Origin: Antedon mediterranea
Taxonomy: Eukaryota; Animalia; Echinodermata
Direction of reading: 5' to 3'
Assembly (NCBI RefSeq): GCF_964355755.1
Contig: NC_092670.1
Span: 23,794,795-23,858,794, forward strand
Length of the DNA stretch: 64,000 nt
In this document: positions 1 through 57,209 of the stretch, in pieces
Position numbering within the stretch: the first letter of the stretch is position 1
Layout: each line of letters begins with the position of its first letter
The notes under the pieces: model-generated
Databases searched by the model: none
What the model was told of the DNA's origin: nothing
Seen by the model: only the letters and a program-made list of their open reading frames with translations
Translations under genes and position numbers: made by a program

Positions 1-600
1 CAATTCGACGTGCTCGTATTGACGTAATTTTAAGTCGAAATGGTTCCATATTTGGTAAAATTACTATAAAAGGCTGGAAAAATATGATTTATGTAAAACA
101 TTGACGTATTTCACGCTTTGTGTACACCGCGCGCGCAAAAATTTGCGCATCCGTGGGAATTTTTGACATGCTTAAAATGACATGAAACGCGTAAAAAGTT
201 GATTAGAAATAAATTTTGCGCATTTTGAAATTTTAAATGCGCGTGCGCGCGTAACTTCTTGTAAAACATGCCATTTTTAATCCACAAAAAGTTTGCCCTT
301 GATATGACTTAAATTTTCACAAAGTGTAAAAAAAAAATTATGTTTGGTTTTTAATCTATGATCAATCATTGAAATTCATAAAATCGCACGTAAGTCATGT
401 TGCGCAACTCTGACGTATTTAAAAAATACATGCTGCACAACTTCATATAAATGTTCATATGTTGACAAAGTTATGAAATGTTATGTTAACACATTTTAGA
501 GATACATGAGCCACAAAAAAGTGGAGGAAAGAAAGAAGAAAAACATAGAAATTGATCCAGTACAGTTACAAGGAGTTATCCGCTCAATGCGGATAACTAA
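1..600 (-). mobile_element. Non-autonomous Helentron-type (HINE) element, subfamily A, cut by the window start
   Basis: Homologous to the right-hand ~600 bp of the A units at 2648-4241 etc. Ends in the hairpin AGTTATCCGC-tcaat-GCGGATAACT-AA. Confidence 0.8.
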
Positions 601-602
601 AA

Positions 603-945
603 AGATGTGTGGAGAGGAGCTCATAGAACACTAGGAATAAATGAAACAATGATGTAAAAGGATTGTTATGAGGAGTAGTTTTAAATGGATGGGACATATT
701 CTAAGAAAGATGAAGATGAACCAGTATTAAAGAGAGCTCAGATTTGGAGGCATGTAGATGAGAAAGAGGCCTATGGCCAAACGTTATGTGGAAAGATATG
801 GTAAAGAAAGAAGGAAAGTTGGTTTGGAGGAACATGATGCACAATACAGGAAGAAGTTGAGAGATTGTGTAGCAGCCTCAAATGAATGATAGTCAGTAAC
901 TCTTTGGAAAGAGAGAAAGCTGGCTCAAATAAAAGATGATGATGA
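603..945 (+). pseudogene. Degenerate 3' end of an RTE-like LINE
   Basis: Frameshifted peptides RSSFKWMGHILRK / DEDEPVLKRA / PNVMWKDMVKKE / KVGLEEHDAQYRKKLR resemble the RTE C-terminus (RLRWxGHxxR...RPxxxWxD...AxDRxxWR). Followed by a (GAT)n tail. Confidence 0.65.
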
Positions 946-2647
946 AAGCAGGATGTTCTCCACCGTTACCTGAAACTGTTGCAATTTCATATCTTTTCCA
1001 AGTTTGGATGTCTAGATTTTTTCTTTCTACTTTTCATATCCCCAGCAGAGTTTTTCATACAGGTATGTAAATCATAAACTTCCATCAATCTTCATTTTAA
1101 CACACCCAGAAAAAATAATAATAATAATAACTAGAATTTAATTCGTCACTTTGACGAATTATAGGTGATCATTTTATCATTTTAATAAAATTAACATTTG
1201 TTAAACATGCATGTACGTTAACATACGATCGTTAAAAGTTGATGTACGCCATCCTATGACATGATGCATATACACTTATAGTGCTGAGTTCTACCTATTA
1301 TGTGTCATACAATATGTACAGTACTGTATAGCTATATACAGTGTAGCATAGGTGAAATTACGGGACTCATATCGTGTTCTAATTTTTTGGTATGATGGAA
1401 TTTTCAAAATAAACTCGAAGATAACAATTTCGAAAGATAATGAATTGAGCAAATAAATATAAGGATTGGAAGAAAATTTGACACGTAGAAGCGCAATGCG
1501 CGGTCTTTGTAATTTGTATAACTTTGACTAAAGAAATTTAAAAACTACTTTTTAACTTCAACTGGCCATATGATAACATCACAACATCCGATAGGCTTAA
1601 TTTTAATATGAATTCATATCTACATTTCATCAGCTTTCATAATAAGTTATAATCTTCAAGGTCACCTTTAATTCTGAAGAGCTATAAGATATTCAAATGT
1701 ATGGTGTAGCTGAAATTACACGACCTAGGTTATTCAAGTTTTTACGCGTGATGACGTCATCAAAATAAAAATGTTGACAACTCATTAGAAGAATAATTAA
1801 TTGAGCAAGCACATACTAAAAGTTGTGCGAAAATCAGGCTCAAATAACGGAGATGCGCTCTATTGAATGTGATAACCCACACAAAAAGATACAAATTCCT
1901 AATTTTTAAATTCAAGTGGCCATTTGATGACGTCATACCATTTTGTACGTCTAATGTGTATATACATTTGTATCTACAACTTATTGGCTTCCATAATAAG
2001 TTAAAAAAATTGGGGGTCATCTGCCATTCTGAAGAGTTATATTCATTTTAAAAGGTCCTTATTTTTTACCATTTTTAGCACTTTTGTACAATTAGTGTGC
2101 GCATTTTGTCATTTTTAACGTGCTCGTATAGCATTATTTTAAATCGAAACTGACTCAAATTTGGTGAATGTACTAAGGATGGTGAGTAGAATGAGATTTG
2201 TTAAAAAAAAAATGTTTTTACGCTTTTTAAGTATCGCGCGCGAAAATTTTTTTTTGCGCAGTAATTTTTTGAAACACGCAAATGGCCTAATTCATGCTCT
2301 AAATTGATCAAAACTTAATTTTGAGCGTTTTAAATTTTTAACACGCGAATTCACGCGCATGACCCTACGTGCGCGTGCGTTTTTATTTGCTAATATTTTA
2401 CCCTTGACCTGAAATTTACGTGTAGTGAATTTCATTAATATGTGATAATGAATTATGGAGATATGATTGATAATGTGATTTCGCAAAATGGCGTATAAAC
2501 GACGTCACGGATGAGTGATCACGCTGGAAAGCTTATTAGGATTAAGTTATATTATTTGAAAGATATTCTGAAATTTTGGTAATCATTGACATTAAACTTT
2601 TTGAGATAATTGTTACACAAAATAGTGTACAGAAACAATAAAAAGAA

Positions 2648-4241
2648 CTAGACATGTAACTCGTCACTTTGACGAGTTAGTTATCCGCACGACAAACGCC
2701 ACGCGCACGTCATACGTTGGAATTTTGTACACGGAAAAAGATTATGGCATTATGACCTGAACTGAAGAATATCAATGCTGTTAGTGCTGAATTCTGTCAA
2801 TTTTGTGTCATATAGTATATACAGTGCAAACGGTATAATCTGTATACATGTTACATACAGTGTAGAATAGGTGAAATTACGGGACCCCCCGTTTATTCTT
2901 ATTTTTAACTTGGCGACGGTATCAAAATGAAACACTAAGATAGCAATTTTGGAAGGACATTATCTCAGCAATCACATATTACCGTGTAGAAGAAATTTGA
3001 ATACGTAAAATATAGATGCGCGCCCTTTTAAATGTGATGAACTATTACGCAAAATATGAAAATACGACTTTTATTATTCAACTGGCCATATGATGACATC
3101 AGAACGTCGGATTGGAAAAATGTTCACATGAATTCGTATCTACAATCCAATAGCTTCCAGGAAACATTTTAATGATGATTATCACTTTTTATTCTGACGA
3201 GCTATAACAGATTGAAATTTACTGTAAAGATGAAAATAATTGACCCACGTTATTTACGTTTTTAGACATGATGACGTAATAAAAATTAAAATATTTTTAC
3301 CTCATGCGAAAGATAGTCGATTGATCTAGACAATATCACAATCGGGGTGAAAATGGAAAACGGATAAGTAGAGATGCGCTCTATTAAATGTGATGAGCTA
3401 CGACGAAAGATACAAAAATCCTATATTTTTTATACGTGTGGCCATACGATGACGTCACAATGTCCGGTTAGCCATATTAATACATGATCCGATATCTATA
3501 ACTCATCAACTTCAAGAATATGTCATCCACAAAAAATTGACCGTCCAGTTTAGAAATTACGACTGTTTAAAAAAAGACATAATTTTGACAAATTTTGACA
3601 AATTTGTTAACTTTTTCATCAAAAACTCGCGAAAATTATCCAATTCTACGTGCCCGTATGATGTGATTTTAAGTCGAAATTGTTTAAAAGTTTGTAAAAT
3701 TACTAGAAAAGGCAGGAAAAACATAAATCACGCGAAAAAAAAAGTGTTTTGCGCTACGTGCGTCCGCTTGCGTAAAAAAATTGCGCGCACCTGGGAATTT
3801 TTGACATGCTTAAAATGACATGAAACGCGTAGAAAATTGATTAGAAATTGATTTTTCGCATTTTGAAATTTTAAACGCGCGTACGCGCGTAACTTCGTGT
3901 GAAACATGTCATTTTTTTTACACATAAAGTTAGCGCATGATATAAATTAAACTTATGCTAAGTTTCATCTGAAATTGTTATATGGTTTTCGATCTATGTT
4001 AAATACGCGAAAAACGTAAAAACGTGCGTAAGTCACGTTGCGTAACTCTGACGTCATTCACAATAAGAGGGGCACAACTTCACGCGAATGCCCATATGTT
4101 GACAAAGTTATGAAATGTTATGTTTACATGTTTTAGAGATACGCTCTGCACAAAAATGACAGAAAGAAAGAAGAATACAGAAAAAAAAGAAGATGAAACA
4201 GGACAGTTACAAGGAGTTATCCGCTGAATGCGGATAACTAA
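2648..4241 (-). mobile_element. HINE subfamily A, complete copy A1 (~1.6 kb)
   Basis: Runs from CTAGACATGTAACTCGTCACTTTGACGAGTTAGTTATCCGC to AGTTATCCGCTGAATGCGGATAACTAA. Confidence 0.85.
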
Positions 4242-4825
4242 CTAGAATTTAATTCGTCACTTTGACGAATTATAGGTGATCATTTTTATCATTTTAGCGT
4301 TATTTTAAGTCGGAATGGACTCAAAATTGGTGAATGTACTAAGGATTGTGAGTAGAATGTGATTTATACATCAAATTAGATTTTTTACGCATTTTAAGAA
4401 TCGTGCGCACAAAAACGCATTTTTGCGCAGTAATTTTTTGAAACGCGCAAATGGCCTAATTCATGCTCTAAATTGATCAAAACCTAATTTTGCGCGTTTC
4501 AAATTTTTAACGCGCGATTTCACGTGCATGACCTTGAAACACACAACTTTTTATTTGCTAATATTTTTACCCTTGACCTGAAGTTTACCTGTAGTGAATT
4601 TCATTTATATGTCATAATGAATTATGGAGATATGATTAATAATGTGATTTCACAAAATGGCGTATAAATGACGTCACGGATGAGTGATCACGCTGGAAAG
4701 CTGATTAGGATTAAGTTATATTATTTGAAAGATATTCTGAAATTTTGGTAATCATTGACATTAAACTTTTTGAGATAATTGTTACACAAAATAGTGTACA
4801 GAAACAATAAAAAGAAAAAAAATAA
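4242..4825 (-). mobile_element. HINE subfamily B copy B2, internally deleted and interrupted
   Basis: B-type end CTAGAATTTAATTCGTCACTTTGACGAATTATAGGTGATC. Near 4296 it jumps to sequence matching B1 ~2129 (roughly 0.95 kb missing). Broken at 4825 by A2. Confidence 0.8.
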
Positions 4826-7800
4826 CTAGACATGAAACTCGTCACTTTGACGAGTTAGTTATCCGCACGACAAACGCCACGCGCACGTCATACGTTGGAA
4901 TTTTGCACACGGAAAAAGATTATGACATTATGACCTGAACTGAAGAATATCATATGCTGTTAGTGCTGAATTCTGTCAATTTTGTGTCATATAGTATATA
5001 CAGTGCAAACGGTATAATCTGTATACATGTTACATACAGTGTAGAATAGGTGAAATTACGGGTCCCCCCGTTTATACTTATTTTTAACACGGCTTTGGTA
5101 TCAAAATGAAACACTAAGATAGCAATTTCGGAAGGAAATTATCTCAGCAACAACATATTAACGTGTGGAAGAAATTTGAATACGTAAAATATAGATGCGC
5201 GCCCTTTTAAATGTGATGAACTATTACGCAAAATATGAAAATACGACTTTTTTTATTCAACTGGCCATATGATGACGTTACAACATCCGATTGGCAAAAT
5301 TTTTACATGAATTTGTATCTACAATCCAATAGCTTCCAGAAAACGTTTTAATCATGATTATCACGTTTTATTCTGACGAGCTATAACAGATTGAAATTTA
5401 CTGCAAAGATGAAAATAAGTGACCCACGTTATTTTCATTTTTAGACATGATGACGTCATAAAAATTAAAATATTTTAACTCATGCGAAAGATAGTTGATT
5501 TACCTAGATAATATAAAAATCGGGGTGAAAATGGAAAACAGATAATTGGAGATGCGCTCTATTAAATGTGATGAGCTATGATGAAAGATACAAAAATTCT
5601 ATTTTTTATATTCGCATGGCCATACGATGACGTCACAATGTCCGGTAAGCCGTATTGATGCATGATACATGATCTACAACTCATCATCTTCCAAAATACG
5701 TAATAAAAATAACTTTTACCGTTTAGTTTAGAAACTACGACTGTTTAAAAAAAGGTATAATTTTGACAAATTTTGACCAATTTTTGAACTTTTTCATCAA
5801 AAACGCACATAAATTATCCAATTCGACGTGCCCGTATGACGTAATTTGAAGTCGAAATTGTTTAAAAGTTTGTAAAATTACTAGAAAAGGCTGAAAAAAC
5901 ATAAATCACACGAAAAAAATCTGTTTTTAACGGTACGTGTGCTCCGCGCGCGTAAAAATTTGCGCGCGCCTGGAAATTTTTGACATTCTCAAAATGACAT
6001 GAAACGCGTAGAAAGTTGATTAGAAATTAATTTTGCGCATTTTGAAATTTTAAATGCGCGTACGCGCGTAACTTTTTGTAAAACACGCATTTTTTTTTCA
6101 ACAAAAAGTTAGCGCATGATATAAATTAAACTTTTGCAAAGTTTCAATTTAAAATGTTATTTGGTTTTTGACCTATGTTAAATATGTGAAATTCATAAAA
6201 TCGCGCGTAAGTCATGTTGCGCAACTCTGACATAATTCAAAAATAGGAGGTGCACAACTTCACGTGAATGCCCTCATGCTGACAAAGGTATAACATGTTA
6301 TGTTTACAAGTTTTTGAGATACGTGAGACACAAAAATGGGGGAGAAGGAAAGAAAAAACTAGACATGAAACTCGTCACTTTGACGAGTTAGTTATCCGCA
6401 CCACGACAAACGCCACGTGCACGTCATACGTTGGAATATTGCACACCGAAAAAAATTATGTCATTATGACCTGAACTGAAGAATATGATGTGTTGTTAGT
6501 ACTGAATGCTGTATATTTTCTGTCATATAGTATACACAGTATAATCTGTATACATGTCACAAACAGTGTAAAATAGGTGAAATTACGGGACCCGTATTTT
6601 ATTTTAATTTTCAAAAGGAAACGCGAAGGTACTGTAGTAATTTCGGAAGAAAATTATCTCAGCAACAACATATTAACGTTTAGAAGAAATTTGAATACGT
6701 GAAACATTAATGCGCGCTTTTTTAAATGTAATGAACTATGACGCAAAAGATGAAAATATGACTTTGTTTATTTAACTGGCCATATGATGACGTCACAACA
6801 TCTGATTGGCGAAAAGTTCACATGATTTCGTATCTACAATCCCATAGCTTCCTAAAAATGTTTTAATCGTGATTATCACATTTTATTCTTACGAGCTATA
6901 ACAGATTAAAATTTACTGTAAAGATGAAATTAATGACGCTGTTAATTAAAATTTTTAGGCATGGTGACGTCATAAAAATTAAAATATTTTTAACTCATGC
7001 GTAAGATAGTTGATTGACCTAGACAATATTAAAATCTCAGAGAAAAAGGAATACAGATAGGCGTGATGCGCTCCATTGAATATGATGAGCAATAATGAAA
7101 GAGACAAAAATCCTATATTTTACATTCGTGTGGCCATACGATGACGTCACAATGTCCGGTTAGCCATATTGATTCATGATCCGATTTCTACAACTCATCA
7201 ACTTCCAGAATATGTAATTAAAAAAAAGTTCACCTCGTTGTTTAGAATCTATCACTGTTTAAAAAAAGGCATAATTTTGACAAATTTTTGAACTTTTTCA
7301 TCAAAAACGCACGTAAAGTATCCAATTCAACGTGCCCGTATGACGTAATTGTAAGTCGAAATTGTTTTAAAATTGGTAAAATTACTATAAAAGGCTGGAA
7401 AAACAATTCAATAAAAAAAAAATACTTTTAGCGCTACGTGCGCACCACGCACATAAAATTGTTCGCGCGCGTGGGAAATTTTGACATGGTCAAAATGTCA
7501 TGATCAGCGTAGAAAGTTGATTAAAAATTAATTTTGCGCATTTTGAATTTTAAATGCGCGTGCGCGCGTAACTTTGTGTAAAACACGCAATTTTTTTTCC
7601 ACAGAAAGTTAGCGCATGATATAAATTAAACTTTTGCTAAGTTTCAATTTAAATTGTTATATGGTTTTAAATCTATGTTAAATACGAGAAATTCATAAAA
7701 TCGTGCGTAAGTCACGTTGCGCATTTCTGACGTCATTCACAATAGGAGGTGCACAACTTCACGTGAATGCCCATATGTTGACAAAGTTATGAAATGTTAT

Positions 7801-9879
7801 GTTTACACGTTTTTGAGATACGCGAGATACAAAAATAGAGGAGAAATGCGTATGCGCGCGTAACGTCTTGTAAAACATGGCATTTTTAATCCACAAAAAG
7901 TTTGCCCTTGATATGACTTAAATTTTCACAAAGTGTCAAAACAAATTTATGCTTGGTTTTTAGTCTATGATCAATCATAAAAAATCATAAAATCGCACGT
8001 AAGTCACGTTGCGCAACTCTGACGTCATTCAAAAATAGGAGATGCACAACTTCACGTAAATGCCCATATGTTGACAAAGTTATGAAATGTTATGTTTACA
8101 AGTTTTTGAGATACGTGAGGCACAAAAATGGAGGAGAAAGAAATAAGAAAAAAAAAAAAAAAAAAAGTAACAGGACGATTACAAGAAGTTATCCGCTACT
8201 AAGCGGATAACTAACTAGACATGAAACTCGTCACATTGACGAGTTAGTTATCCGCACCACGACAAGCGCCACGTGCACGTCATACGTTGGAATATTGCAC
8301 ACAGATAAAGATTATGGCATTATGACAAGAACTGAAGAATATGATATGCTGTTAGTGCTGAATTCTGTCAATTTTGTGTCATATAGTATATACATGCAAA
8401 CAGTATAAATCTGTATACATATTACATACAGTGTAGAATAGGTGAAATTACGGGACCCACCGTTTATTTCAATTTTTAACATGGCGACGGTATTAAAATT
8501 AAACACTAAGATAGCAATTTCGGAAGGACATTATCTCACCAACAACATATTAACGTGTAGAAGAAATTTGAATACGTAGAATATGAATGCGTGCTCGTTT
8601 AAATATGATGAACCATGACGCAAAATATGAAAATACGACTTTTTTTATTCAACTGGCCATAGGATGACTTCACAACATCCGATTGGCAAAATGTTCACAT
8701 TAATTCGTATCTACAGTCCAATAGCTTCCAGAAAACGTTTTAATCATAATTATCACTTTTTATTCTTACGAGCTATAACAGATTAAAATTTACTGTAAAG
8801 ATGAAATTAATAACCCTATAAATTATAATTTTTAGGCATGATGACGTCATAAAAATTAAAATATTTTTAACTCATGCGAAAGATAGTTGATTGACCTAGA
8901 CAATATTAAAATCTCGGAGAAAAAGGAATACAGATAGGCGTGATGCGCTCCATTGAATATGATGAGCAATAACGAAAGAGACAAAAATCCTATATTTTTC
9001 ATTCGTGTGGCCATACGATGACGTCACAATGTCCGGTTAGCCATATTGATTCATGATCCGATATCTACAACTCATCAACATCCAGAATTTGTAATTTTAA
9101 AAAATTTCACCTCGTTGTTTAGAATCTTTGACTGTTTAAAAAAAGGCATAATTTTGACGAATTTTGACAATTTTTTTAACTTTTTCATAAAAAACGCACG
9201 TAAATTATTCAATTCAACGTGCCCGTATGACGTAATTTTAAATCGAAATTGTTTAAAAGTTGGTAAAATTACTAGAAAAGGCTGAAAAAACATAAATAAA
9301 AAATAAAAAAAATGTTTTCAACGCTACGTTCGCACCATGCGCGTAAAAAAAGGCGCGCGCGTGGGAATTTTTTACATTCTTAAAATTACATGAAACGCGT
9401 AGAAAGTTGATTAGAAATTGATTTTTCGCATTTTGAAATTTTAAACGCGCGTGCGCGCGTAACTTTGTGTGAAACAAGCCATTTTTTCCCCATAGTCAGT
9501 TAGCGCAAGATATAACTTAAACTTTTGTCAAGTTTCATATTAAATTGTTATATGGTTTTCGATCTATGTTAAATACGCGAAATTCGGAAAAACGCGCGTA
9601 AGTCATGTTGCGCAACTCTGACGTCATTCAAAAATAGGAGGTGCACAATTTCACGTAAATGCCCACATGTTGACAAAGTTATGAAATGTTATGTCTACAC
9701 GTTTTTGAGTTACGCGAGACACAAAAATGACAGAAAGAAAGAAGAATACAGAAAAAAAAAAAAAAAAAAAAGATGATGAAACAGGACAGTTACAAGGAGT
9801 TATCCGCTCAATGCGGATAACTAAAAAAAAAAGTAACAGGACAGTTACAAGGAGTTATCCGCTCAATGCGGATAACTAA
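4826..9879 (-). mobile_element. HINE subfamily A copy A2 containing A3 (6359-8214) and A4 (8215-9824)
   Basis: A2 body stops in its purine tract at 6358. An orphan A terminus (AAGTAACAGGACAG...GCGGATAACTAA) appears at 9825-9879, directly after the terminus of A4. Confidence 0.8.
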
Positions 9880-9891
9880 TAATAATAATAA

Positions 9892-11318
9892 CTAGAATTT
9901 AATTCGTCACTTTGACGAATTATAGGTGATCATTTTTATCATTTTAATGAAATTAACATTTTTTTAACATGCACGTACGTTAACATACGATCGTAAAAAG
10001 CTGATGTACGCCATCCTATGACATGATGCATACGCTTATAGTGCCGAGTTGTGCCTATATATGCCATATACAATATGTACAGTATATACTGTATATCTAT
10101 ATACAGTGTAGCATAGGTGAAATTACGGGACCCACATCATGTTCTAATTTTTTGGTATGATGGAATTATCATAATAAACTCGAAGATGGCAATTTCGAAA
10201 GATAATGAATTGAGCAAATAAATATAAGGATTGGAAGAGAATTTGACACGTAGAAGCGCAATGCGCGCTCTTTGAAATTTGTATAACTTTGACTAAAGAA
10301 ATTTAAAAACAACGTTTTAACTTCAACTAGCCATATGATAACATCACAACATCCAATAGGCTTAATTTTTATATGAATTCATATCTACATTTCATCAGCT
10401 TTCATAATAAATTATAATCATCAAGGTCACATTTAATTCTGAAGAGCTGTAAGATATTCAAATTTACGGTGAAGGTGAGATTACACGACCTATGTTAATC
10501 AAGTTTTTACGCGTGATGACGTCATCAAAATAAAAGTAGTGGCAAGTCATAAGAAAGTCAATTAATTGAGCAATCACATACTGAAAATTGAGCGAAAATC
10601 GGGCACAAAATAACAGAGATGCGTTCCAGAAAAAGTTAAAAAAATTGGGGGTCATCGTGCATTCTGAAGAATTATTTTCATTTTAAAAATGCCTTATTTT
10701 TCACCATTTTCAACACTTTGATGCAATTAATTTGCGCATTTTGTCATTTTGAACCTGCTCGTATAGCGTTATTTTATATCGGAACTGACTCAAATTTGGT
10801 GAATGTACTAAAGATGGTGAGTAGAATGCGATTTGTAAAAAAAAATTGTATTTTTTACGCTTTTTAAGTATCGCGCGCGCAAACAATTTTTTTTGCGCAG
10901 TAATTTTTTCATGCTCTAAATTGATCAAAACTTAATTTTGAGCTTTTTAAATTTTTAACGCGCGATTTCACGCGCATGACCCTACGTGCGCGTGCGTATT
11001 TATTTGCTAATATTTTTACCCTTGACCTGAAGTTTACGTGTAGTGAATTTTATTAATATTTGATAATGAATTATGGAGATATGATTGATAATGTGATTTC
11101 ACAATGGTGTATAAATGACGTCACGGATAAGTGATCACGCTGAAAAGCTTATTAGGACTAAGTTACAGGACTTGAAAGACATTGTGAAATTTTGGTAGTC
11201 ATTGACATTTAACTTTTTGAGATATTTGTTACACAAAATAGTGTACAGAAAGAAGAAGAAGAATAAAGATTTCATACAATAACAATAGGTGATCATTTTA
11301 TTCTAAATGATCACCTAA
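9892..11318 (-). mobile_element. HINE subfamily B, copy B3 with both termini
   Basis: B-type CTAG end at 9892, (GAA)n tract near 11248-11263, hairpin TAGGTGATCATTT-tattct-AAATGATCACCTA. Short internal deletion near 10625 relative to B1. Confidence 0.82.
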
Positions 11319-12679
11319 TAAAGATTTCATACAATAGCAATAGGTGATCATTTTATTCTAAATGATCACCTAAAAATAAAGATTTCATACAATAACAATA
11401 GGTGATCATTTTAGAATATTTTATTCTAAATGATCACCTAATAATATTGATATTCTTCTTTAATTTTCGATACTGATGACTATGTCTGAATATTAAACTT
11501 TTATTAGACGCACACAGCTATGAGATATTGAATTTGGGGTCAATAGACATGACCTACATTGGAGGTACAAATAACTGACCAAATTGAGTAACTAAAGATG
11601 ACAATAAAATTATGTTTTATGTGTTCTACAAATTAAAGGAATATCATGTTAAATATCAATTGTACAGATAAAATGTACCTTTTAGAAATTAGACAGTTGT
11701 GAAGATACTCCAACATTTTAGGTAATGCAGTATAAACTTTATTACTACAACTCCAGCAATATTAAACAATCTGTTTTGATAATTCTGCAAACTACACAAA
11801 ACTATTTCAGAAAACTTATTTGAAGCGAACTTTAAATCATCCCAACCTAAAATTTATTTGAGAGATTTGTTAATTGTGAAAAACAACAGAATGCCAGTGA
11901 AATTTATATTTGATCATCAGGATAAAGTTAATTTGTACAATAAGTAAAAAGAAAATGATTGAAACGTGAATAACTTAAAATATCAAATTAATTTTATATT
12001 TATATTTCTTGTGCTACAGTATGTTGAACTAAATAAATAAATAACAATTTCTCTGAAAACTCATACAAAAAAGAACATAAAAGCTACGCTCGCGCTAACC
12101 GCTCGCCAATTCGCCAATGGCGACTGGAGTCTCCATTTGGCGAAAATAATTATTGCCTCGTTCGCCAAATTGGCGAAAATACATTTCCAAGCCTAGGCCT
12201 AGCTTGGTCGGCGTGACTTCTTATGGGAGCGAGAATTCGCCACACTTCGGTACTTTCTGACTCGGGTACACTTTTTATTTTATGTGACGACGTCACGATC
12301 GCCGTGTTCATTTTTTTAGTTCTGTTTAAACATGCGCAGAGCGTGCCTCGATGACGTTTTAATGACACACAGTTAATGTGATTGGTTCGTGGCCGGTGTA
12401 AGATTGAATTGTGTCCAGCATTCAAAAGTGTCCGGGTGGACACTTTTCAGCATTGGATAGTGTCCAGTTGCATGTTTCAACGGGTTCGTGGGCGTTTATC
12501 AACAATTTAATGCTGTCCGGCCCGTTTAATAATGTTTGACCCATGGATTGAAATGCGTCCACTATTAAATACTGTATCATACGTTTTATGATAGGTGGTT
12601 GTTTTTATCACGCCTGCACTTGTCTTGTCTTCTTTTAATAACCAATAATACTTAATGATGTCAAACAAATTTTTTTTTC

Positions 12680-41386: not shown

Positions 41387-41492
41387 CTATTGTGAGTAGT
41401 AGAAGCTCAACCAACTAATGTAATTAGTAATTGTAAATCAATATAAACACACAACATATATACACTAATTATATATCGTGTTTTGAAATATT

Positions 41493-41996
41493 AGGGAGGT
41501 TTCGCAATCTTACGAATACGATAACGAAAACGGATACGTCACGCACACGTATTCGTTTTTACGTAAGCCATAAAAAATCTGTTTCGCATGGCAACGAAAT
41601 ATTCAGGCGCGTTCAAAGTATGACTGCGGTAAATTTGAGCGAAGCGCAGGTACGTGTTGCTTGGTGCTTGGCTGCCTAGGCCTAGCGTAACATCGAGTGA
41701 GGACTTTAAAAACTGCTATTTATGAAAATTGACATGGCATTTTAGTAAATTACTTTAGTAAATTACTTTAAATAAAAGTATAATTATATTATAATCATGA
41801 ATCATTCCTGATTCAATTGCAAAATGTGCAAAATAGATCAAAAACTATACTTGTTTTGTAGTTACGAATATGACTGGTGATATTCGTCAACACGAATACG
41901 CTTTACGAATATGAAATGGGGATCAGCTCAAAAGTTTCACAAATGTGTGACGTATCCGTTTTCGTTATCGTATTCGTAAGGTTGCGAAACCTCCCT
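41493..41996. mobile_element. MITE family X, copy 2 (most complete)
   Basis: Same TIRs and body as 26105-26590, same orientation. Confidence 0.9.
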
Positions 41997-42417
41997 AATG
42001 TTTTTTTTATAAATCAAATTTGATTCAAAATAATATCATGGTACAGTTCAGATCAGATAGTTTCATCCAAGTGATGCAAACATATTATGTATTTATTCTT
42101 AAGAGAATTGGGATTGAAGTGATACTGATATGTATAATAAATATTATTGCGACTGTCTATTTGTCATAATACTGTCTCACTGGATATCCATATTATGACA
42201 ATTTTCTAACAATATTGTTTTGCAAATTATGAAGAAAATATAACTATAGTAAACTTATTATACTCATATTATAATACACAGTTCTCAAACACTTTGCGTC
42301 CAAATGCTTTCAAATTATGCGATAAATTATGTGAAAGTTAATATATGTTTTTATATCCATTTGTAAGTGATATCCTTTCATTTCTATTGCCAATATAAAA
42401 TACACTCATATGGTCAC

Positions 42418-44166: not shown

Positions 44167-45185
44167 TGACTGGATTTAAACCAACCTGGGACAGGTATTT
44201 ACTATGCAAAATGTAATACAGGTGTATTAAGATAAGATTACTGGACCCAACCCTTATAACATTATATTTTTCTCAGGACTATATTTTCCCGAAGTGCATA
44301 GCTGAGAGCAGATAAAAGCAGTCAATATCTTTTATATTACTACAGGCCTAGACCTCATACCTTTAGCGAAGAATGAACTAGCCTAGGCTCAGACTACTTC
44401 ACTTAGGCTTCTTGGTTTTAAACTTCACAGACAGCAAGGTTTACTTGCGCAACAAGGATCCAATCCAAAGATGACAGCATCGGTCAGTTATCAATTATAA
44501 CCCACCAATCGTTCCGCTATAATTATTTTGGAATGGTAGTCATGTGATGTCATTTTGACCAATCACGTTTTAGTATTTACATAGGCCATGTAATATTATT
44601 AAACTACACTATATTAATAAACCATTGTATTACATCTTGTCTTATTATATAATCAGCCCGATATCATAATAGTAAAATAAGTTGGTATGTTGCCACTGAA
44701 TCTTTTGGGAAATTCCCTGTTTATTTGTTACAGTAGATTTTCTTTAGTGTAAAACTACTAATAAACAATTTCCATTATATATATATTTAACAATTGTGTT
44801 TATATTTTGTGTTAGATTTTCAATTTCCTTTTTAAGTTTTATACTTTACAAAATGCTTTATAAATAATTGCATTTAACAGGTTAAAACAAAAAGAATACT
44901 TTTGACATGGTCCCTGGATTTTACTTCTTGGATAATCAAATTTTAGTTATTATAATAAATCATCATAATTCAAAATATTACCTTTAATTAAGGTTAATCA
45001 ATTCTCCTAGGTCAATCTAATATCTACAGTAACAATTAATTACTAGTACCATGCCATATTTATTATATTAATAAATTATAGCTGAAGGGGATATTTATTA
45101 AAGTTTATATAGCTGATGGTCAATTGAATCGTACAATTACATACCTACAGTTGTTTCATCGTTGTTTGTAATATACAAACTTGTG

Positions 45186-45659
45186 ATGGTACTCGAGTTC
45201 TTAGGAGATGACTATGCATTTCACGAGTCTCAGCCTGCGCCGTCATCTAGACGTGTTTCTATGTGCGGCCTGCTCACACCGCTGAAGAAGGCCAACACAT
45301 GCTCAGTAGTGTCTCTTGACCCGGAGCAAATAGAACGGGTCAACCTTCTCGCTAAGGAGGCAAAAATTCCTAATCCTGCGCCGTTCGTTCTTGGAGCGGC
45401 TTTTCCAGTGAGTGATCATTTTGAACGTTATGGTACGGCACCTGCCATTCCGGACGGCGCTAAGATACGGGTCCGCGAAGACCAAGGCTTAGACGGGAGT
45501 AAGAAAAGTTTTCTTAATGCAGCTAGTTCCAGGTCGGAGGAGTTTCTGTCAACAGAGCGGCACGCGAGACAATCAGAGCAACATCTATGGCTGGATATCT
45601 TCTTTCCTTTTCGGAAGGAAGACAAATTGGTGCGGAAGAGGGAATCTTTGTTTCTTTGA
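45186..45659 (+). other. GC-rich orphan ORF (157 aa from ATG 45186), possibly a retroelement (DIRS-type Gag) or viral fragment
   Basis: Longest non-repetitive ORF in the window, visibly GC/CpG-rich against AT-rich flanks, antisense to PKC. Only a weak by-eye resemblance to known proteins. Confidence 0.35.
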
Positions 45660-47247: not shown

Positions 47248-49313
47248 ATTTTCTTTACTTTCTAACTGTATACGTCTGTATACAGCTTCTTTCGCTGTAC
47301 CCCGAGTATTGCACATTCGTGCTTGTTAAATCTATGAATATAATAGTTTTTTAAAATGCGTTTTTTTTTTCTTTTCTTTTTTAATGGAGGCCATGGGTGT
47401 ATGTATTAGAAACATGTTTTTTTTTAAAAGCAGGGAAATAAATGTTCAACAGAAACAATATACATTAGGAAAACCTGTATGCATATCATATCTCACTAGG
47501 GACTAAACAACGATCATTAATATTTATGAAAATACTATGTGGTAATTTATCATAAGACCAGATGAAAAAACAGCATTCATATGCAACTATGGTTTGCATT
47601 TGAATTGAAGGCTGCAAATGCTAATGATTACTAAATAGCAAAAGAGCAATTGTTTTGCTGGTCACCAACTCGGTAAAGATTTTTTCTTTATAGTATGTGA
47701 ATCAGATAGGACACCCCTATTAAGGGGACAGTGTGTTAGGTTGTAAAGGTTTCCTTTAATAGGGATTCTACTGTACTGTTTTAACGTCTATCTCCTCTGT
47801 TAAACTCTTAAATCTTTTGTACTCATTTCGCTACCACGTCCAGACTGCTGGTTTTGTTCTTTAATCATTTGCATGCATTGCATGTTTCGAAATTCATTAA
47901 CGAATATGAAGTGACAGATAATAGAGTCTAATATGTTTTTAGCATAGATGAATACACTGTCAATTATTTACTGTTTTTGCAAGGAATATTCTGTTTGAAA
48001 TAATTATTTAATCAAAACATTTGCAATTAATGTTTTAGTTGCATCAATACAGCAAAAGCAATACAAACAATATGTAAGCCTAGCCAGATGTTTTATTGGA
48101 TAGCAATTGGAAAACTAACCAACCAACTTCAAGCAAGCTTAAGAAACTAAACAATTTCAGAGTGTCAGAAATACCTTTGGGACACCTTACAATGATTGGG
48201 GGGGGGGGGGGGGGCGGGGGTGGAAATATATTGTTTCACATAGTAAACTTTAGTTTACCGAAATGCGGCTAGTAAATTGTAAATCTATGTACTGTACTAT
48301 CAAGATGTTGAGGAAATTGAACCTTTTGTGGAAAATGAGAGATTACTCAAAATAGACTGAAAGATGTACTAAAGCAAGCATGAAAATGTTATTAAAAGAG
48401 AAAAATATCACCAGGAGTTTCAGTCAATTAAGTATTTGAATAAAGATGCGTTACACTAGATGGAAGAAACTCGCTTAAGTGAGACCTCACACTGTGATAT
48501 AATCGATGTATGCGCCAGTCATCATTGTACATGCAGCTAAATATGTAGCCCGAAGATTAAGGTCTTAAAAGTCTGAATCTAAGCTAAAGGAAGAGTAATA
48601 TTAGGACTTAAATCTTTACTAATGGTTGGATGTAATTTACTTGATGTTATTTACGCTACAGGCGAAATCACCATCCATACACAAAAGGATGTAGAGTTGA
48701 TTTATAGGATTGAAGTAAGCTTGCGTTTTATATAGCCATGTATTCAAACCTACATATATTATAATTAGTATTGTTTACTATAATCACCTGCTGGTTGGTA
48801 AACATTGAAACATTTTAAATAATCAATGACAATTACCATGCTAACAGTACACGAGAACAACAGCTTAATTTATTAAAACTGGTATGTAAATAACCAAATC
48901 CCGATTTAAAAAAAAAAGAAATCATTGTTGGTGGTGGTTTTTTTCTACAAGTTTATCCTTTTTTAATGACAGTGGGTGGAACAGGATTTTGAAACATTAA
49001 AACTAAGTACTGAACTTATCTGATGTAAAAAACGAAAAATCAATGTGCAGATTGCTATAACCATATATTCTCAGGTAATCCCACTTCAGGTCTAATCCCA
49101 GCCACTCAGTTATTTCACAAACAGGAATATCTCCGGTATAGTCTCAGTATTGAAATTTGATCTTATCTGGATGTAGTCTTCTCTCTAACCAGTTCAGATG
49201 ATGGATATATCAGAGAATATACGGCAATATTGATGGTAGTAATTATGCTGATTTTGAATTATAGTTACAACATTTTTTGGGAGTCAAAGTTTGACTGTTG
49301 TCAAAATAACAAT

Positions 49314-49752
49314 AGGGAGGTTTCGCAATCTTACGAATACAATAAAGAAAACGAATATGTCACGCACACGTATTCGTTTTTCGTAAGCCAGTAAAAATCT
49401 GTTTCGCATGGCGCCGGTACGTGTTGCTTGGTGCTTGGCTGCCTAGGCCTAGCGTAACATCAAAGCGAGTGAGGACTTTAAAAACTGCTATTTATCAAAA
49501 TTAACTGGCATTTTAGTAAATTACTTTAGTAAATTACTTTCAATAAAAGTATATAATCATGAATCATTTCTGATTCAAATGCAAAATGTGCAAAATAGAT
49601 CAAAAACTATACTCATTTTGTAGTTACGAATATGACTGGTGATATTCGTCAACACGAATACGCTTTACGAATATGAAATGGGGATCAGCTCTAATGTTTC
49701 ACAAATGTGTAACGTATCCGTTATCGTATTCGTAAGGTTGCGAAACCTCCCT
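49314..49752. mobile_element. MITE family X, copy 3 (internal deletion)
   Basis: Same TIRs. About 55 bp missing near 49413 relative to copy 2. Confidence 0.88.
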
Positions 49753-50451
49753 ACTGTCTCAATCTCAATTGCAATTACATTTGCTACATTATCCTTGTAT
49801 ATTCCTTTTAGCTAATTTAATGCCACAGAAAATGAGAATTTCTTTGAACTACACAATTGAAAATGATTTCAGTATCTGATTACCAATGCAATTGTCTTTG
49901 TAAACTATTCCCTACAGAACCTGAATAATAAACTCCTTAGAAAAGGGCAAAATAATTTGTCATGCATGAATGAACACTAGTCACATGGTTTCACAGGTGG
50001 CTGGTTTTAAAATTAGGAATGTTTTCTTTCTGATGATGAATGTATAAACCTCCATGCCAAACACCCAAAAAAACATTTAAACTTATTTTTTTCCTTATTA
50101 TCTTATTCACAAACCACTCCTTATATCTAACAATTTTGAATGTATTTCCGATTTCTGGGTGATTTTTATTAATAAAAGATTTTTCTTCAATAGGACTAAC
50201 CTAGAAATGATCTTTGAATTTTTTTTTTGCACATATCCAAAGGATGAGGTAAAATACAAGGGCTATTGAACCATGTCTTTCACATGCTAGTCCGATATCC
50301 TATACCATGCCGCTCTCTCTATAGTGTATAAGAAATATACAAAGACAGATGAAATCGATGGGTAATAATAAGCTATAACCGATGATCTACTGAGTATTCA
50401 ATACATCACATGATTAATGATACTAGCCCTCTATCTAAATCGCTAAACCAG

Positions 50452-52486: not shown

Positions 52487-55400
52487 CTAGACATGTAACT
52501 CGTCACTTTGACGAGTTTGGTTATCCGCCGCGCAAGTGGTGCAACATTAACATTAAGGGGATAGGTTGAGGACAAAGGGAAGTGTTCACGTTGGCATTAT
52601 GACCTGAACTGAAGAGTATGATATGTTGTTATTGCTGAACTTTATTATTTAAATTCATATATAGTATACACAGTATAATCTGTATCCATATCACATACAG
52701 TGTAGAATAGGTGAAATTACGGGACCCGCTATTTATTGCAATTGTTAACATGTTGACGGTTTTAAAATGAAACGCGAAGGTAGCAATTCCGAAAGAAAAT
52801 TATCTCAGCAACAACGTATTAACGTGTAGAAGAAATTTGAATACGTTAAATATTGATGCGCGCTCTTTTAAATGTAATGAATTATGACGCAAAAGATGAA
52901 AATACGACCTTTTTTATTTAACTGGCCATATGATGACGTCACAACATCCGATTGGCAACATTTTTACATAATTTCGTATCTACAATCCAATAGCTTCCAG
53001 AAAAAGTTTTAATCGTGATTATCACATTTTATTCTTACGAGCTATAACAGATTAAAATTTACTGTAAAGATGAAATTGATGCCACACGTGATTTAAATTT
53101 TTAGGCATGACGACGTCATAAAAATAAAAATATTTTTAACTCATGCGAAAGATAGTTGATTGACCTAGACAATATCAAAATCGGGGTGAAAATGGAAAAC
53201 GGATAAGTGGAGATGCGCTCTATTCAATGTGATGAGCTATGACGAAAGATACAAAAATCCTAAATTTTATATTCGCGTGGCCATACGATGACGTCACAAT
53301 GTCCAGTTAGCCATATTAATACCTGATCAGACATCTACAACTCATCTACTTCCAGAATATGTCATCCACAAAAAGTTGACCGTCTAGTTTAGAAATTACG
53401 ACTGTTTAAAAAAAGGCATATTTTAAACGAATTGTTTAACCTTTTCATAAAAAACGCGCGCAAATTGTCCAATTCGACGTGCTCGTATGACGTATCTTTA
53501 AGTCGAAATTGTTAAAAATTTGGTAAAATTACATGAAAAGGCTGGAAAAACATAAATCACGCGAAAAAAATACGTTTTCAATGCTACGTGCGCACCGCAC
53601 ACGTAAAAATGTGCGCACGCGTGGGAATTTTTTACATGCTTAAAACGACATGAAACGCGTAGAAAGTTGATTATAAATTAGTTTCGCGCATTTTGAAATT
53701 TTAAATGCGCGTGCGCGCGTAACTTTGTGTAAAACACGCAATTTTTTTTCAACAGAAAGTTAGCGCATGATATAAATCAAACTTTTGCAAAGTTTCAAGT
53801 TGAAATGTTATTTGGTTTTCGACATATGTTCAATACGAGAAAATCGTTAAATCGCGCGTACGTCACTTTGCGCAATTGTAAACATCATGAAAAGCTTCGC
53901 TTGACGACGTTACATAAATGTCAAAATGTTAACATAGTTAACAAAATGTTATGTTTGCAAGTTTCAGAGAAAAGCGTTACACAAAAATCATACAGAAAGA
54001 AAGAAGAAGAACTAGACATGTAACTCGTCACTTTGACGAGTTTGGTTATCCGCCGCGCAAGTGGTGCAACATTAACATTAAGGGGATAGGTTGAGGACAA
54101 AAGGAAGTGTTCACGTTGGCATTATGACCTGAACTGAAGAATATGATCTGTTGTTATTGCTGAATTTTATTATTTAAATTCATATATAGTATACACAGTA
54201 TAATCTGTATCCATATCACATACAGTGTAGAATATGTGAACTTACGGGACCCGCTATTTATTGCAATTTTTAACATGTTGACGGTTTTAAAATGAAACGG
54301 GAAGGTAGCAATTCCGAAAGGAAATTATCTCAGCAACAACGTATTAGCGTGTAGAAGAAATTTGAATACGTGAAATATTGATGCGCGCTCTTTTAAATGT
54401 AATGAATTATGACGCAAAAGATGAAAATACGACCTTTTTTATTTAACTGGCCATATGATGACGTCACAACATCCGATTGGCAACATTTTTACATAATTTC
54501 GTATCTACAATCCAATAGCTTCCAGAAAAAGTTTTAATCGTGATTATCAAATTTTATTCTTACGAGCTATAACAGATTAAAATTTACTGTAAAGATGAAA
54601 TTGATGCCACACGTGATTTAAATTTTTAGGCATGATGACGTCAAAAAAATTAAAATATTTTTAACTCATGCGAAAGATAGTTGATTGACCTAGACAATAT
54701 CAAAATCGGGGTGAAAATGGAAAACGGATAAGTGGAGATGCGCTCTATTCAATGTGATGAGCTATGACGAAAGATACAAAAATCCTAAATTTTATATTCG
54801 CGTGGCCATACGATGACGTCACAATGTCCGGTTAGCCATATTAATACCTGATCCGATATCTACAACTCATCTACTTCTAGAAAATGTCATCCACAAAAAT
54901 TTGACCGTCTAGTTTAGAAATTACGACTGTTTAAAAAAAGTCATATTTTAAACGAATTTTTTAACCTTTTCATAAAAAACGCGCGCAAATTGGCCAATTC
55001 GACGTGCTCGTATGACGTATCTTTAAGTCAAAATTGTTTAAAATTTGGTAAAATTACTAGAAAAGGCTGAAAAAACATAAATCACGCGAAAAAATTACGT
55101 TTTCAATTCTACGTGCGCACCGCACACGTAAAAATGTGCGCACGCGTGGGAATTTTTGACATGCTTAAAACGACATGAAACGCGTAGAAAGTTGATTATA
55201 AATTAATTTTGCGCATTTTGAAATTTTAAATGCGCGTGCACGCGTAACTTTGTGTATAACACGCAATTTTTTTTCAACAGAAAGTTAGCGCATGATATAA
55301 ATTAAACTTTTGCAAAGTTTCAAGTTGAAATGTTATTTGGTTGTCGAGCTATGTTAAATACGACAAAATCGTTAAATCGCGCGTAAGTCACGTTGCGCAA

Positions 55401-57209
55401 TTGTAAACGTCATGAAAAGCTTCGCTTGACGACGTTACGTAAATGTCAATATGTTAAGATAGTTACCAAAATGTTATGTTTGCGAGTTTTGGAGAAAAGC
55501 GTTACACAAAAATCATACAGAAAGAAAGAAGAAAAATAAAAAGATGATGATTTCGTACAATCACAAGAGGTTATCCTGCAACTTCGTTGCGGATAACCAA
55601 TAAAAAGTTGACTAGACATGTAACTCGTCACTTTGACGAGTTTGGTTATCCGCCGCGCAAGTGGTGCAACATTAACATTAAGGGGATAGGTTGAGGACAA
55701 AGGGAAGTGTTCACGTTGGCATTATGACCTGAACTGAAGAGTATGATATGTTGTTATTGCTGAACTTTATTATTTAAATTCATATATAGTATACACAGTA
55801 TAATCTGTATCCATATCACATACAGTGTAGAATAGGTGAAATTACGGGACCCGCTATTTATTGCAATTGTTAACATGTTGACGGTTTTAAAATGAAACGC
55901 GAAGGTAGCAATTCCGAAAGAAAATTATCTCAGCAACAACGTATTAACGTGTAGAAGAAATTTGAATACGTTAAATATTGATGCGCGCTCTTTTAAATGT
56001 AATGAATTATGACGCAAAAGATGAAAATACGACCTTTTTTATTTAACTGGCCATATGATGACGTCACAACATCCGATTGGCAACATTTTTACATAATTTC
56101 GTATCTACAATCCAATAGCTTCCAGAAAAAGTTTTAATCGTGATTATCACATTTTATTCTTACGAGCTATAACAGATTAAAATTTACTGTAAAGATGAAA
56201 TTGATGCCACACGTGATTTAAATTTTTAGGCATGACGACGTCATAAAAATAAAAATATTTTTAACTCATGCGAAAGATAGTTGATTGACCTAGACAATAT
56301 CAAAATCGGGGTGAAAATGGAAAACGGATAAGTGGAGATGCGCTCTATTCAATGTGATGAGCTATGACGAAAGATACAAAAATCCTAAATTTTATATTCG
56401 CGTGGCCATACGATGACGTCACAATGTCCAGTTAGCCATATTAATACCTGATCAGACATCTACAACTCATCTACTTCCAGAATATGTCATCCACAAAAAG
56501 TTGACCGTCTAGTTTAGAAATTACGACTGTTTAAAAAAAGGCATATTTTAAACGAATTGTTTAACCTTTTCATAAAAAACGCGCGCAAATTGTCCAATTC
56601 GACGTGCTCGTATGACGTATCTTTAAGTCGAAATTGTTAAAAATTTGGTAAAATTACATGAAAAGGCTGGAAAAACATAAATCACGCGAAAAAAATACGT
56701 TTTCAATGCTACGTGCGCACCGCACACGTAAAAATGTGCGCACGCGTGGGAATTTTTTACATGCTTAAAACGACATGAAACGCGTAGAAAGTTGATTATA
56801 AATTAGTTTCGCGCATTTTGAAATTTTAAATGCGCGTGCGCGCGTAACTTTGTGTAAAACACGCAATTTTTTTTCAACAGAAAGTTAGCGCATGATATAA
56901 ATTAAACTTTTGCAAAGTTTCAAGTTGAAATGTTATTTGGTTTTCGACATATGTTCAATACGAGAAAATCGTTAAATCGCGCGTACGTCACTTTGCGCAA
57001 TTGTAAACATCATGAAAAGCTTCGCTTGACGACGTTACATAAATGTCAAAATGTTAACATAGTTAACAAAATGTTATGTTTGCAAGTTTCAGAGAAAAGC
57101 GTTACACAAAAATCATACAGAAAGAAAGAAGAAGAATAAAAAGTTGATGATGATGATGATTTCGTACAATCACAAGAGGTTATCCTGCAACTTCGTTGCG
57201 GATAACCAA
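52487..57209 (-). mobile_element. Cluster of three Helentron-type (HINE) elements, subfamily C
   Basis: CTAG-hairpin ends with subTIR TTGGTTATCCGC at 52487, 54012, 55612. Opposite hairpins GGTTATCC(T)GCAAC-ttc-GTTGCGGATAACCAA end at 55600 and 57209. Body homologous to subfamily A. Confidence 0.85.

What the first reader, a model, noticed from the sequence alone, without database searches (positions are those of the whole stretch)
1131..11441. Self-targeting nested stack of rolling-circle elements whose termini balance like brackets
Seen: what looks like a ~1.5-kb tandem array parses as a nest. There are three B-type CTAG ends (1131, 4242, 9892) and three B-type hairpin ends stacked at ~11262-11441. 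There are four A-type CTAG ends (2648, 4826, 6359, 8215) and four A-type hairpin ends (4241, 8214, 9824, 9879). The simplest parse is B1[A1 B2[A2[A3 A4] B3]]. Every interruption is at an AA (TT on the element strand), either in the A/GAA/AAT tract ~55-70 bp inside the host's hairpin end or immediately at a sibling's terminus, and all copies share one orientation. Tail subtype supports the pairing: the orphan end at 9825-9879 has the AAGTAACAGG tail seen with the GGAG-type tract (as in A2), whereas A1 and A4 have GATGAAACAGG. Established: Helentrons/HINEs have subTIRs and a 3' stem-loop, insert at TT and leave no TSD. Inference: each element carries its own landing pad, so insertions pile up at one intronic site without destroying the host's termini, and the composite might move as a unit. 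Caveat: the chimeric A3 makes the A2/A3 closure ambiguous.
Basis: partly seen in the sequence, partly recalled or inferred. Interest (0 to 1): 0.85.

Follow-up and report, generated by a model that had tools for sequence, protein, structure and literature searches.

The report
Rolling-circle transposons nested behind their heads
Seven copies of two small non-coding rolling-circle-type transposons sit inside or against one another in 10.3 kb, a block that appears absent from another version of the same site, likely because new copies keep landing in a short T-rich repeat that each copy carries just behind its front end, a habit already proposed for fungal and maize relatives.

Summary
The nest is real. 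All 14 termini are where stated and balance by type; removing inner copies restores B1, B2 and A2. The 4 breaks lie 55-68 bp inside a host's 5' hairpin end, in a tract holding 1-4% of an element's possible sites. Neighbours are only 84-89% alike, so this is no tandem duplication. Contigs of one sample show the right junction without the element in 4 of 4 runs, and nest-type junctions at several times single-copy depth. In 4 metagenome loci with other terminal repeats, 5 of 5 3' ends also abut a relative. Corrections: base-exact boundaries give 5'-TT...CTAG-3' ends and A^T at 5 of 7 sites, not always TT; A3 is a chimera broken in its own tract, and a second cluster (52.5-57.2 kb) has three 3' ends but two 5' ends, so balance is not general. 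Self-insertion and multi-terminus Helitrons are already proposed for Fusarium and maize. This scan noted similar stacks before on other DNA, three in this genome. Verdict: new variant of a known kind; no autonomous partner seen.

The parts
1131..2647 (-). B1 body and 3' end (CTAG at 1131, stem-loop, 3' ATIR); outermost element, broken in its tract
2648..4241 (-). A1, intact A element inserted in B1's tract
4242..4825 (-). B2 body and 3' end, internally deleted; abuts A1's 5' end exactly; broken in its tract
4826..6358 (-). A2 body and 3' end, inserted in B2's tract, itself broken in its poly-A tract
6359..7846 (-). A3 body and 3' end; stops inside its own tract
7847..8214 (-). A3': 5' 370 bp of an A0-like copy with hairpin end, joined to A3 at a short A run (chimera)
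   Evidence: 85.5% to A0, 83.1% to A3 body; junction
8215..9824 (-). A4, intact A element; its 3' end abuts the A3' 5' end exactly
9825..9879 (-). Orphan A 5' end (55 bp), best read as A2's
   Evidence: joint 6353 to 9823 in contigs
9880..9891 (-). 12 bp of B2's (TAA)n tract left between the A2 and B3 insertions
   Evidence: restores an in-phase (TAA)6
9892..11318 (-). B3, intact B element inserted in B2's tract
11319..11373 (-). B2's displaced 5' end (55 bp)
11374..11441 (-). B1's displaced 5' end (68 bp) with a 10-bp longer hairpin loop
   Evidence: variant is exact in a contig at about 4 times single-copy depth
1116..1130 (.). Chromosomal (TAA)n target, left part; continues at 11442
   Evidence: empty form
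1..600 (-). A0: 5' part of a further A element running off the window start
52487..57209 (-). Second cluster: A5 (52487-54011 plus 55601-55611, no 5' end), A6 (54012-55600), A7 (55612-57209)

Best explanation
The block is a nest of seven non-coding elements with Helitron2-type ends, likely built by successive rolling-circle insertions into a T-rich (TTA/TTC/T)n tract that every copy carries 50-90 bases behind its 5' hairpin. Shown: the anatomy (5'-TT, 12-13 bp asymmetric inverted repeats, 5' hairpin, 3' stem-loop, CTAG-3'), the break positions, no target duplication, A^T or T^T sites, one orientation, and a version of the site without the element. Inferred: a RepHel transposase encoded elsewhere circularises copies and integrates them at W^T in T-rich tracts on the element strand; B1 landed in a chromosomal (TTA)n that resembles the internal tract; each newcomer displaces the host's 5' 55-70 bp intact, brings a fresh tract, and leaves a T^T at its own 5' junction that a sibling can use (this would give the order B1, A1, B2, then A2 and B3, then A3, A4). 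Inferred and weaker: copying can start at an inner 5' end and run to an outer 3' end, which would make composites lacking the outer 5' end, as in cluster 2 and the A3 chimera.
For: Typed balance and excision. 4 of 4 host breaks in the nest and 2 in cluster 2 lie 55-73 bp from the host's 5' end, in a tract with 1.4-3.7% of an element's W^T sites; the second A-rich run about 500 bp further in is unused in the 7 A copies. Removing A6 gives A7's tract letter for letter. Neighbours 84.5-88.7% alike with no excess for adjacent pairs (tree); A and B have different ATIRs yet abut exactly. In contigs: A2-type tract joined to orphan-type end and B2-type tract joined to a B end (about 9-11 times single copy), and 7 nest-type junctions at 4-19 times single copy. 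Right junction without the element in 4 of 4 runs. 5 of 5 3' ends in 4 metagenome loci, found with a pattern that said nothing about the flank, follow a relative's tract (2) or hairpin end (3). 22-113 comparably A/T-rich tracts lie in the 48 kb outside elements; simulated chance of 8 of 11 insertions in element tracts is 6.5e-5 or less.
Against: No autonomous partner was seen, so the enzyme is inferred. Balance fails in cluster 2 (three 3' ends, two 5' ends) and A3 needs an extra event. Only 15 of 234 joints were shown, with 20-27 letters on the short side, and the tool warns that depth is no copy number. The four runs are one sample, perhaps the source; the empty form rests on 16-22 loose letters, mostly microsatellite. 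The filled junction is listed only in X7 and X9, with 23 letters on the element side. Low-coverage metagenome contigs favour multi-copy junctions, and the window was selected for the nest, so both enrichment figures are inflated by an unknown amount. Insertion order was not tested by divergence (no family consensus).
Confidence: 0.78

Rival explanations
1. Origin-guided targeting: the hot spot is set less by tract sequence than by transposase bound at a resident copy's 5' hairpin, which would expose single-stranded element strand just behind it; the tract only supplies the nearest W^T.
For: All 6 breaks fall 55-73 bp from the 5' end although other A-rich runs exist in the copies and many in the flanks; exact abutment at a sibling's 5' end in 2 window junctions and 2 metagenome junctions; position conserved in loci with other ATIRs.
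Against: B1's chromosomal site is a (TAA)n with no hairpin nearby; A lands in B and B beside A despite different ATIRs; T-rich and microsatellite targeting is already reported for HINEs and MINE-1. Compatible with the best explanation as a refinement.
Confidence: 0.3
2. The block, or much of it, was assembled elsewhere and moved here as one composite by read-through of 3' ends or as a mixed concatemer.
For: The whole block seems absent from another version of the site; exact 3'-to-5' joints at A1|B2 and A3'|A4 resemble circle junctions; cluster 2 fits copying from an inner 5' end as drawn for maize; nest-type junctions are multi-copy.
Against: Seven intact CTAG ends would all have to be bypassed; joined neighbours differ by family or by 11% and so are not one circle's concatemer; the nest still had to be built by self-insertion somewhere.
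Confidence: 0.12
3. Tandem duplication or unequal crossing-over of a 1.5-kb unit, with slippage multiplying the 55-bp ends.
For: Stacked B ends are 94% alike with a 55-bp period; A5 and A7 differ at 1 of 1525 bases; loss of one stacked end by slippage could explain cluster 2 and A3.
Against: Units alternate between two families, are 84-89% alike, and break at different phases; each orphan end begins exactly where its host stops; B1's end is a variant present elsewhere.
Confidence: 0.06
4. Assembly artefact from collapsed or mis-joined repeats.
For: No contig spans the nest; runs of the likely source sample hold only 42-60% of sampled words.
Against: Copies are too diverged to be confused; base-exact complementarity of distant pieces; right junction exact in two runs; same junction types in other organisms.
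Confidence: 0.04

Closest known systems
Helitron2 / HLE2 non-autonomous elements (Bao and Jurka 2013, PMC3627910; HELIANO, PMC11417382; passages read; section 24)
   Same: 5' ATIR at the end forming a hairpin, 3' ATIR just upstream of a 3' stem-loop, 5' T, no target duplication.
   Different: Ends in CTAG and inserts mostly at A^T; those passages give T-T for HLE2 and do not describe deep self-nesting.
HINE / DINE-1 and oyster Cg_HINE (Thomas et al. 2014, PMC4067079; PMC7492417; passages read)
   Same: Non-coding, subterminal repeats plus inverted repeat at the 5' end, microsatellite near the 5' end, T-rich targets, ambiguous terminal Ts.
   Different: In the passages seen the microsatellite is not described as a landing site for relatives; no endonuclease-bearing partner is shown here.
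FoHeli multiple 5' termini by self-insertion in Fusarium (Chellapan et al. 2016, PMC5148889; passages and section 10 read)
   Same: Short 5' ends (31-85 nt) repeated; self-insertion proposed as the cause; composites that move.
   Different: There inferred from partial copies with one nested example; here both ends of most nested copies survive, four levels deep, across two families, with a likely empty allele.
Maize Helitrons with multiple termini from nested copies (PMC3288121; passages read)
   Same: Insertion near or inside other Helitrons; copying from an inner 5' end gives several 3' ends, as in cluster 2.
   Different: Canonical Helitron1; inner 3' ends there are mostly damaged (99 of 100), here all keep CTAG; no fixed landing tract described.
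proto-Helentron-Pi of Phytophthora (PMC4067079 passage; PMC11417382 section 24)
   Same: 5'-TT and 3'-CTAG ends, A^T site, no duplication.
   Different: Its stem-loop lies at the 5' side (HLE2-reverse-like); here the layout is canonical HLE2. No protein to compare.
Double insertion into one target (McGurk and Barbash 2018, PMC5932611, passages) and microsatellite-targeting MINE-1 helitrons (review PMC3812793, passage)
   Same: Target preference makes tandem or stacked copies; a Helitron-like family that targets a short repeat.
   Different: The target there is chromosomal; here it travels inside the element.

Membership tests
Helitron2 / HLE2 | 5' ATIR 0-2 bp from the 5' end, pairing into a 5' hairpin | tested here: met
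   12-13 bp ATIR at offset 0-1 in 9 of 9 end pairs; hairpins z -6.9 to -8.1 in 3 of 3 folded
Helitron2 / HLE2 | [quoted passage not shown] | tested here: met
   ATIR begins about 29-31 bp from the CTAG end; 9-10 bp stems, z -3.2 to -4.0 in 3 of 3 folded
Helitron2 / HLE2 | No target-site duplication | tested here: met
   A5 tract minus A6 equals A7's tract exactly; (TAA)n restored in phase
Helitron2 / HLE2 | Insertion between T and T | tested here: inconclusive
   A^T in 5 of 7 and T^T in 2 of 7 with a 5'-TT element; fits TT only if one T is counted as a variable terminal T, which PMC4067079 allows
Helitron2 / HLE2 | RepHel of the partner falls in the HLE2 clade | not testable with these tools
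   No whole genome held; no RepHel in the elements (longest ATG ORF 63-86 aa)
Helentron / HINE (strict) | Autonomous partner with endonuclease sharing the subTIRs | not testable with these tools
   No partner found
Helentron / HINE (strict) | Non-coding, with a microsatellite-like segment near the 5' end | tested here: met
Canonical Helitron1 / HLE1 | 5'-TC start and no terminal inverted repeats | tested here: not met
   Starts TT and has ATIRs
Canonical Helitron1 / HLE1 | CTRR-3' end after a hairpin, A^T site | tested here: met
   CTAG at 10 of 10 window ends; A^T at 5 of 7 sites
proto-Helentron | Stem-loop at the 5' side upstream of the left repeat (reverse layout) | tested here: not met
   Stem-loop follows the right repeat, next to CTAG (definition)
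Satellite / tandem array | Head-to-tail units in one phase, neighbours most alike | tested here: not met
   Two families, 84.5-88.7% identity, no excess for neighbours

The most novel reading that the evidence does not exclude
An animal lineage of Helitron2-type elements with 5'-TT...CTAG-3' ends keeps a landing tract at a fixed distance behind its 5' origin across species and uses transposase bound there to steer new copies, of its own and sister families, into resident copies without harming their ends; the resulting nests then move in part as composites and create 10-kb presence/absence alleles inside genes.
Probability: 0.25. Interest if true: 0.75.

Novelty: new variant of a known kind. 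Interest (0 to 1): 0.5.

Why it matters
Target choice of Helitron2-type elements has not been worked out biochemically (PMC4067079 calls for such studies). Nests like this give base-exact sites, a readable order and an apparently empty allele, so tract-only versus origin-guided targeting can be tested by counting in one genome. They also show that 1.5-kb 'satellites' in invertebrate assemblies can be nests that repeat annotators would misread, and that such stacks can make 10-kb structural alleles in or beside a conserved kinase gene. The underlying habit is already proposed for fungi and maize, which limits the surprise.

Tried and rejected
No whole genome was held, so no genome-wide count. 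Head-pattern scans found nothing in viral contigs and nothing with a stricter pattern in metagenome contigs (that pattern also would not match the B ends). Rfam gave 0 matches in 1-12000. No ORF in the elements exceeds 86 aa from ATG (5 copies checked). A CTAGAATTT match at 23076 is a chance 9-mer with no element behind it. Motif searches found no later PKC kinase exon below 19,300 on the minus strand, so no exon is shown left of the nest (motifs recalled, not from a call); Pfam C1_1 scored 24.7 bits, under its 26.5 cut-off. The idea that B3 was duplicated from B1 together with its flank was dropped: the shared flank is only (TAA)n, which belongs to B2's tract. In one search the A6 and A7 ends were set one base too far; one search corrects this. 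A search of earlier findings by sequence returned nothing. An Alu-in-Alu analogy is recalled only; one search gave no usable paper and it is not used.
Full report
Observation. The window is AT-rich animal-type DNA (GC 27-38%); no whole genome is held. Motif and self-BLAST searches put CTAG ends at 1131, 4242, 9892 (B) and 2648, 4826, 6359, 8215 (A), and hairpin ends at 4241, 8214, 9824, 9879 (A) and 11318, 11373, 11441 (B), all in one orientation. The 14 termini are type-balanced as B1[A1 B2[A2[A3 A4] B3]]; 0.34% of 200,000 shuffled orders balance (a naive null). Removing inner copies by coordinates gives continuous elements: B1 92.1% to intact B3, B2 87.2% (internally deleted), A2 89.7% to A1 and 87.9% to A4. 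The breaks lie 68, 67, 55 and 55 bp from the host's hairpin end.

Anatomy. On the minus strand each element starts with TT, has a 12-13 bp repeat at offset 0-1 that folds into a 5' hairpin (z -6.9 to -8.1, 3 of 3 folded) and recurs inverted about 30 bp from the other end, followed by a 9-10 bp stem-loop (z -3.2 to -4.0, 3 of 3) and CTAG. A and B share the stem-loop core and about 70% identity over 500-750 bp but have different terminal repeats. Longest ATG ORFs are 63-86 aa in 5 copies checked; Rfam finds nothing in 1-12000. This is the Helitron2/HLE2 layout as described in PMC3627910 and PMC11417382 (passages).

Boundaries. Two conventions were compared (corrected for A6 and A7). With a 5'-TT element and no duplication, removing A6 from A5 gives A7's tract letter for letter, B2's tract becomes an in-phase (TAA)6, the chromosomal site an in-phase (TAA)n, and abutting siblings join with no base between them. 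With a single 5' T each site gains a stray base.

Is the site special? The tract holds 1.4-3.7% of the W^T sites of an intact copy (4 copies), yet all 4 breaks in the nest and both in cluster 2 fall in it. A second A-rich run about 500 bp further in is unused. Outside elements, 48 kb of the window hold 22-113 comparably rich tracts (18 to 16 of 25 bases); with 20 such targets the simulated chance that 8 of 11 insertions land in element tracts is 6.5e-5, and 0 of 200,000 with 50 or 100. The window was chosen for the nest, so this overstates the case.

Not a tandem duplication. The four A bodies are 84.5-88.7% alike; adjacent pairs (88.4, 86.5, 88.7) are no closer than the others (84.5, 87.4, 87.2) (tree).

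Imperfections. A3 stops in its own tract at 7846 and continues with the last 370 bp of a copy closer to A0 (85.5%) than to A3 itself (83.1%), so five A bodies share four pairs of ends. A second cluster at 52487-57209 has three 3' ends and two 5' ends: A5 is broken in its tract by A6, then 11 bp of tract, then A7, which differs from A5 at 1 of 1525 bases; A5's own 5' end is missing. Both fit copying from an inner 5' end through to an outer 3' end, as drawn for maize (PMC3288121, passages), or loss of one of two stacked ends by slippage; I cannot tell these apart.

Sequencing runs. Ten runs hold part of 400-5200; four of one sample (X7-X10) hold 42-60% of the words and may be the source. Laying X7, X8, X1, X6 on 300-12300 gave single-copy flank contigs at depth 255-283 (X7) and 44-52 (X8). 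Of 234 joints 15 were shown: 2 restore hosts (A2-type tract to orphan-type end, B2-type tract to a B end; about 9-11 times single copy), 5 are nest-type (A tract to A 3' end four times, A 5' end to an orphan B end), 8 are other mosaics or deletions; 2 further nest-type joints appear among 12 of 272 rows of table 5c. Nest-type joints run at 4-19 times single-copy depth. Short sides are 20-27 letters and the tool warns that depth is no copy number, so this shows recurrence, not a rate; it cannot separate repeated insertion at one base from spread of composites. No piece spans the nest. Laying X7-X10 on 11400-11620 showed in 4 of 4 runs a contig in which the right flank is preceded by (TAA)n instead of the B hairpin; in X10 the 22 loose letters match the window's left flank with one change. 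Its depth is about half that of the flank in X7-X9 (147, 26, 4.7). The filled junction is exact in listed contigs of X7 and X9 (23 letters on the element side, below the tool's 31-letter rule) and is not seen in X8 or X10 (32 of 290 pieces shown). The simplest reading is a presence/absence allele of the whole block; it is one sample and no spanning read. Summed depth over the B end is about 1,000 times single copy in X7-X9, a rough sign of a large family.

Other organisms. A pattern for the 3' end alone found 4 metagenome loci with 5 matches (two searches found none). They have other terminal repeats (11-19 bp) and only patchy 67-90% similarity to the window's elements. All 5 ends abut a relative: 2 follow a host's A/AAT tract, 3 follow a sibling's hairpin end by 0, 0 and 4 bases. 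Low-coverage contigs favour multi-copy junctions, so the share is biased, but the junction types are the same.

Setting. Minus-strand exons of a conventional protein kinase C lie at about 36.9-19.3 kb (Pfam C2 29.7 bits over cut-off; C1_1 24.7 bits, under cut-off; motifs). No later kinase motif was found below 19.3 kb, so the nest is likely in a long intron, but no exon is shown on its left.

Mechanism. Shown: ends, breaks, no duplication, one orientation, recurrence. Inferred: a RepHel elsewhere makes circles with joined ends (as shown for Helraiser, PMC5876387, passages) and integrates at W^T in T-rich tracts; the tract's strand asymmetry fixes orientation; each insertion leaves the host's ends intact though separated and adds a new tract and a T^T at its 5' junction. 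Whether tract sequence alone or transposase at the neighbouring hairpin sets the hot spot is open.

Comparison and novelty. Self-insertion giving repeated short 5' ends is proposed for Fusarium FoHeli (PMC5148889, passages and section 10); nested origin of multi-terminus Helitrons for maize; T-rich targets for HINEs; microsatellite targeting for MINE-1 (review passage); double insertion for Drosophila elements; the Xenopus paper seen describes minisatellite arrays rather than self-nesting (passages). Searches listed no paper whose title or seen passages describe deep balanced nests at a fixed internal tract in animals; only listings were seen for most hits, and subscription papers are not covered. 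Earlier notes of this scan report similar stacks in other genomes and three in this one; they are unchecked, and their naming of the host as a feather star was not tested. Verdict: real, well explained, a clean variant of a known habit; interest 0.5.

Noticed in passing
window:52487-57209: Second nest of three A-family copies with three 3' ends and two 5' ends; A5 and A7 differ at 1 of 1525 bases, so it is very recent.
   Followed up: yes
window:1-600: A0 runs off the window start; contigs in X7 and X8 match 599-841 exactly and then run on unlike A0, hinting at an empty allele here too (records 17 and 25).
   Followed up: partly
window:11439-11507: The empty form in X10 lacks the one-base loss at 11483 and the loose end at 11507 seen in X7-X9, although all carry one sample code; perhaps a third haplotype or contig simplification. 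Unexplained.
   Followed up: no
window:19260-36945: Minus-strand exons of a conventional protein kinase C (C1, C2, start of kinase domain).
   Followed up: partly
window:12677-14151: 130-bp tandem array, about 11 copies, 85% matches.
   Followed up: no
window:45913-47261: Three tRNA-Val(AAC) genes in 423-bp and 283-bp duplications, next to a 180-codon stop-free frame at 45117-45659 with no Pfam match.
   Followed up: partly
window:26094-26601, 41481-42003, 49313-49757: Three copies of a roughly 500-bp repeat with about 60-bp terminal inverted repeats, MITE-like, unrelated to the nest.
   Followed up: no
L003:1-1480: Host tract, then a complete element, then the next 3' end abutting it: the same arrangement as B1[A1 B2] in another organism.
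   Followed up: yes
L004:1245-2300: A relative of the element carries an internal tandem repeat of about 150 bp, as HINEs with central repeats do.
   Followed up: no
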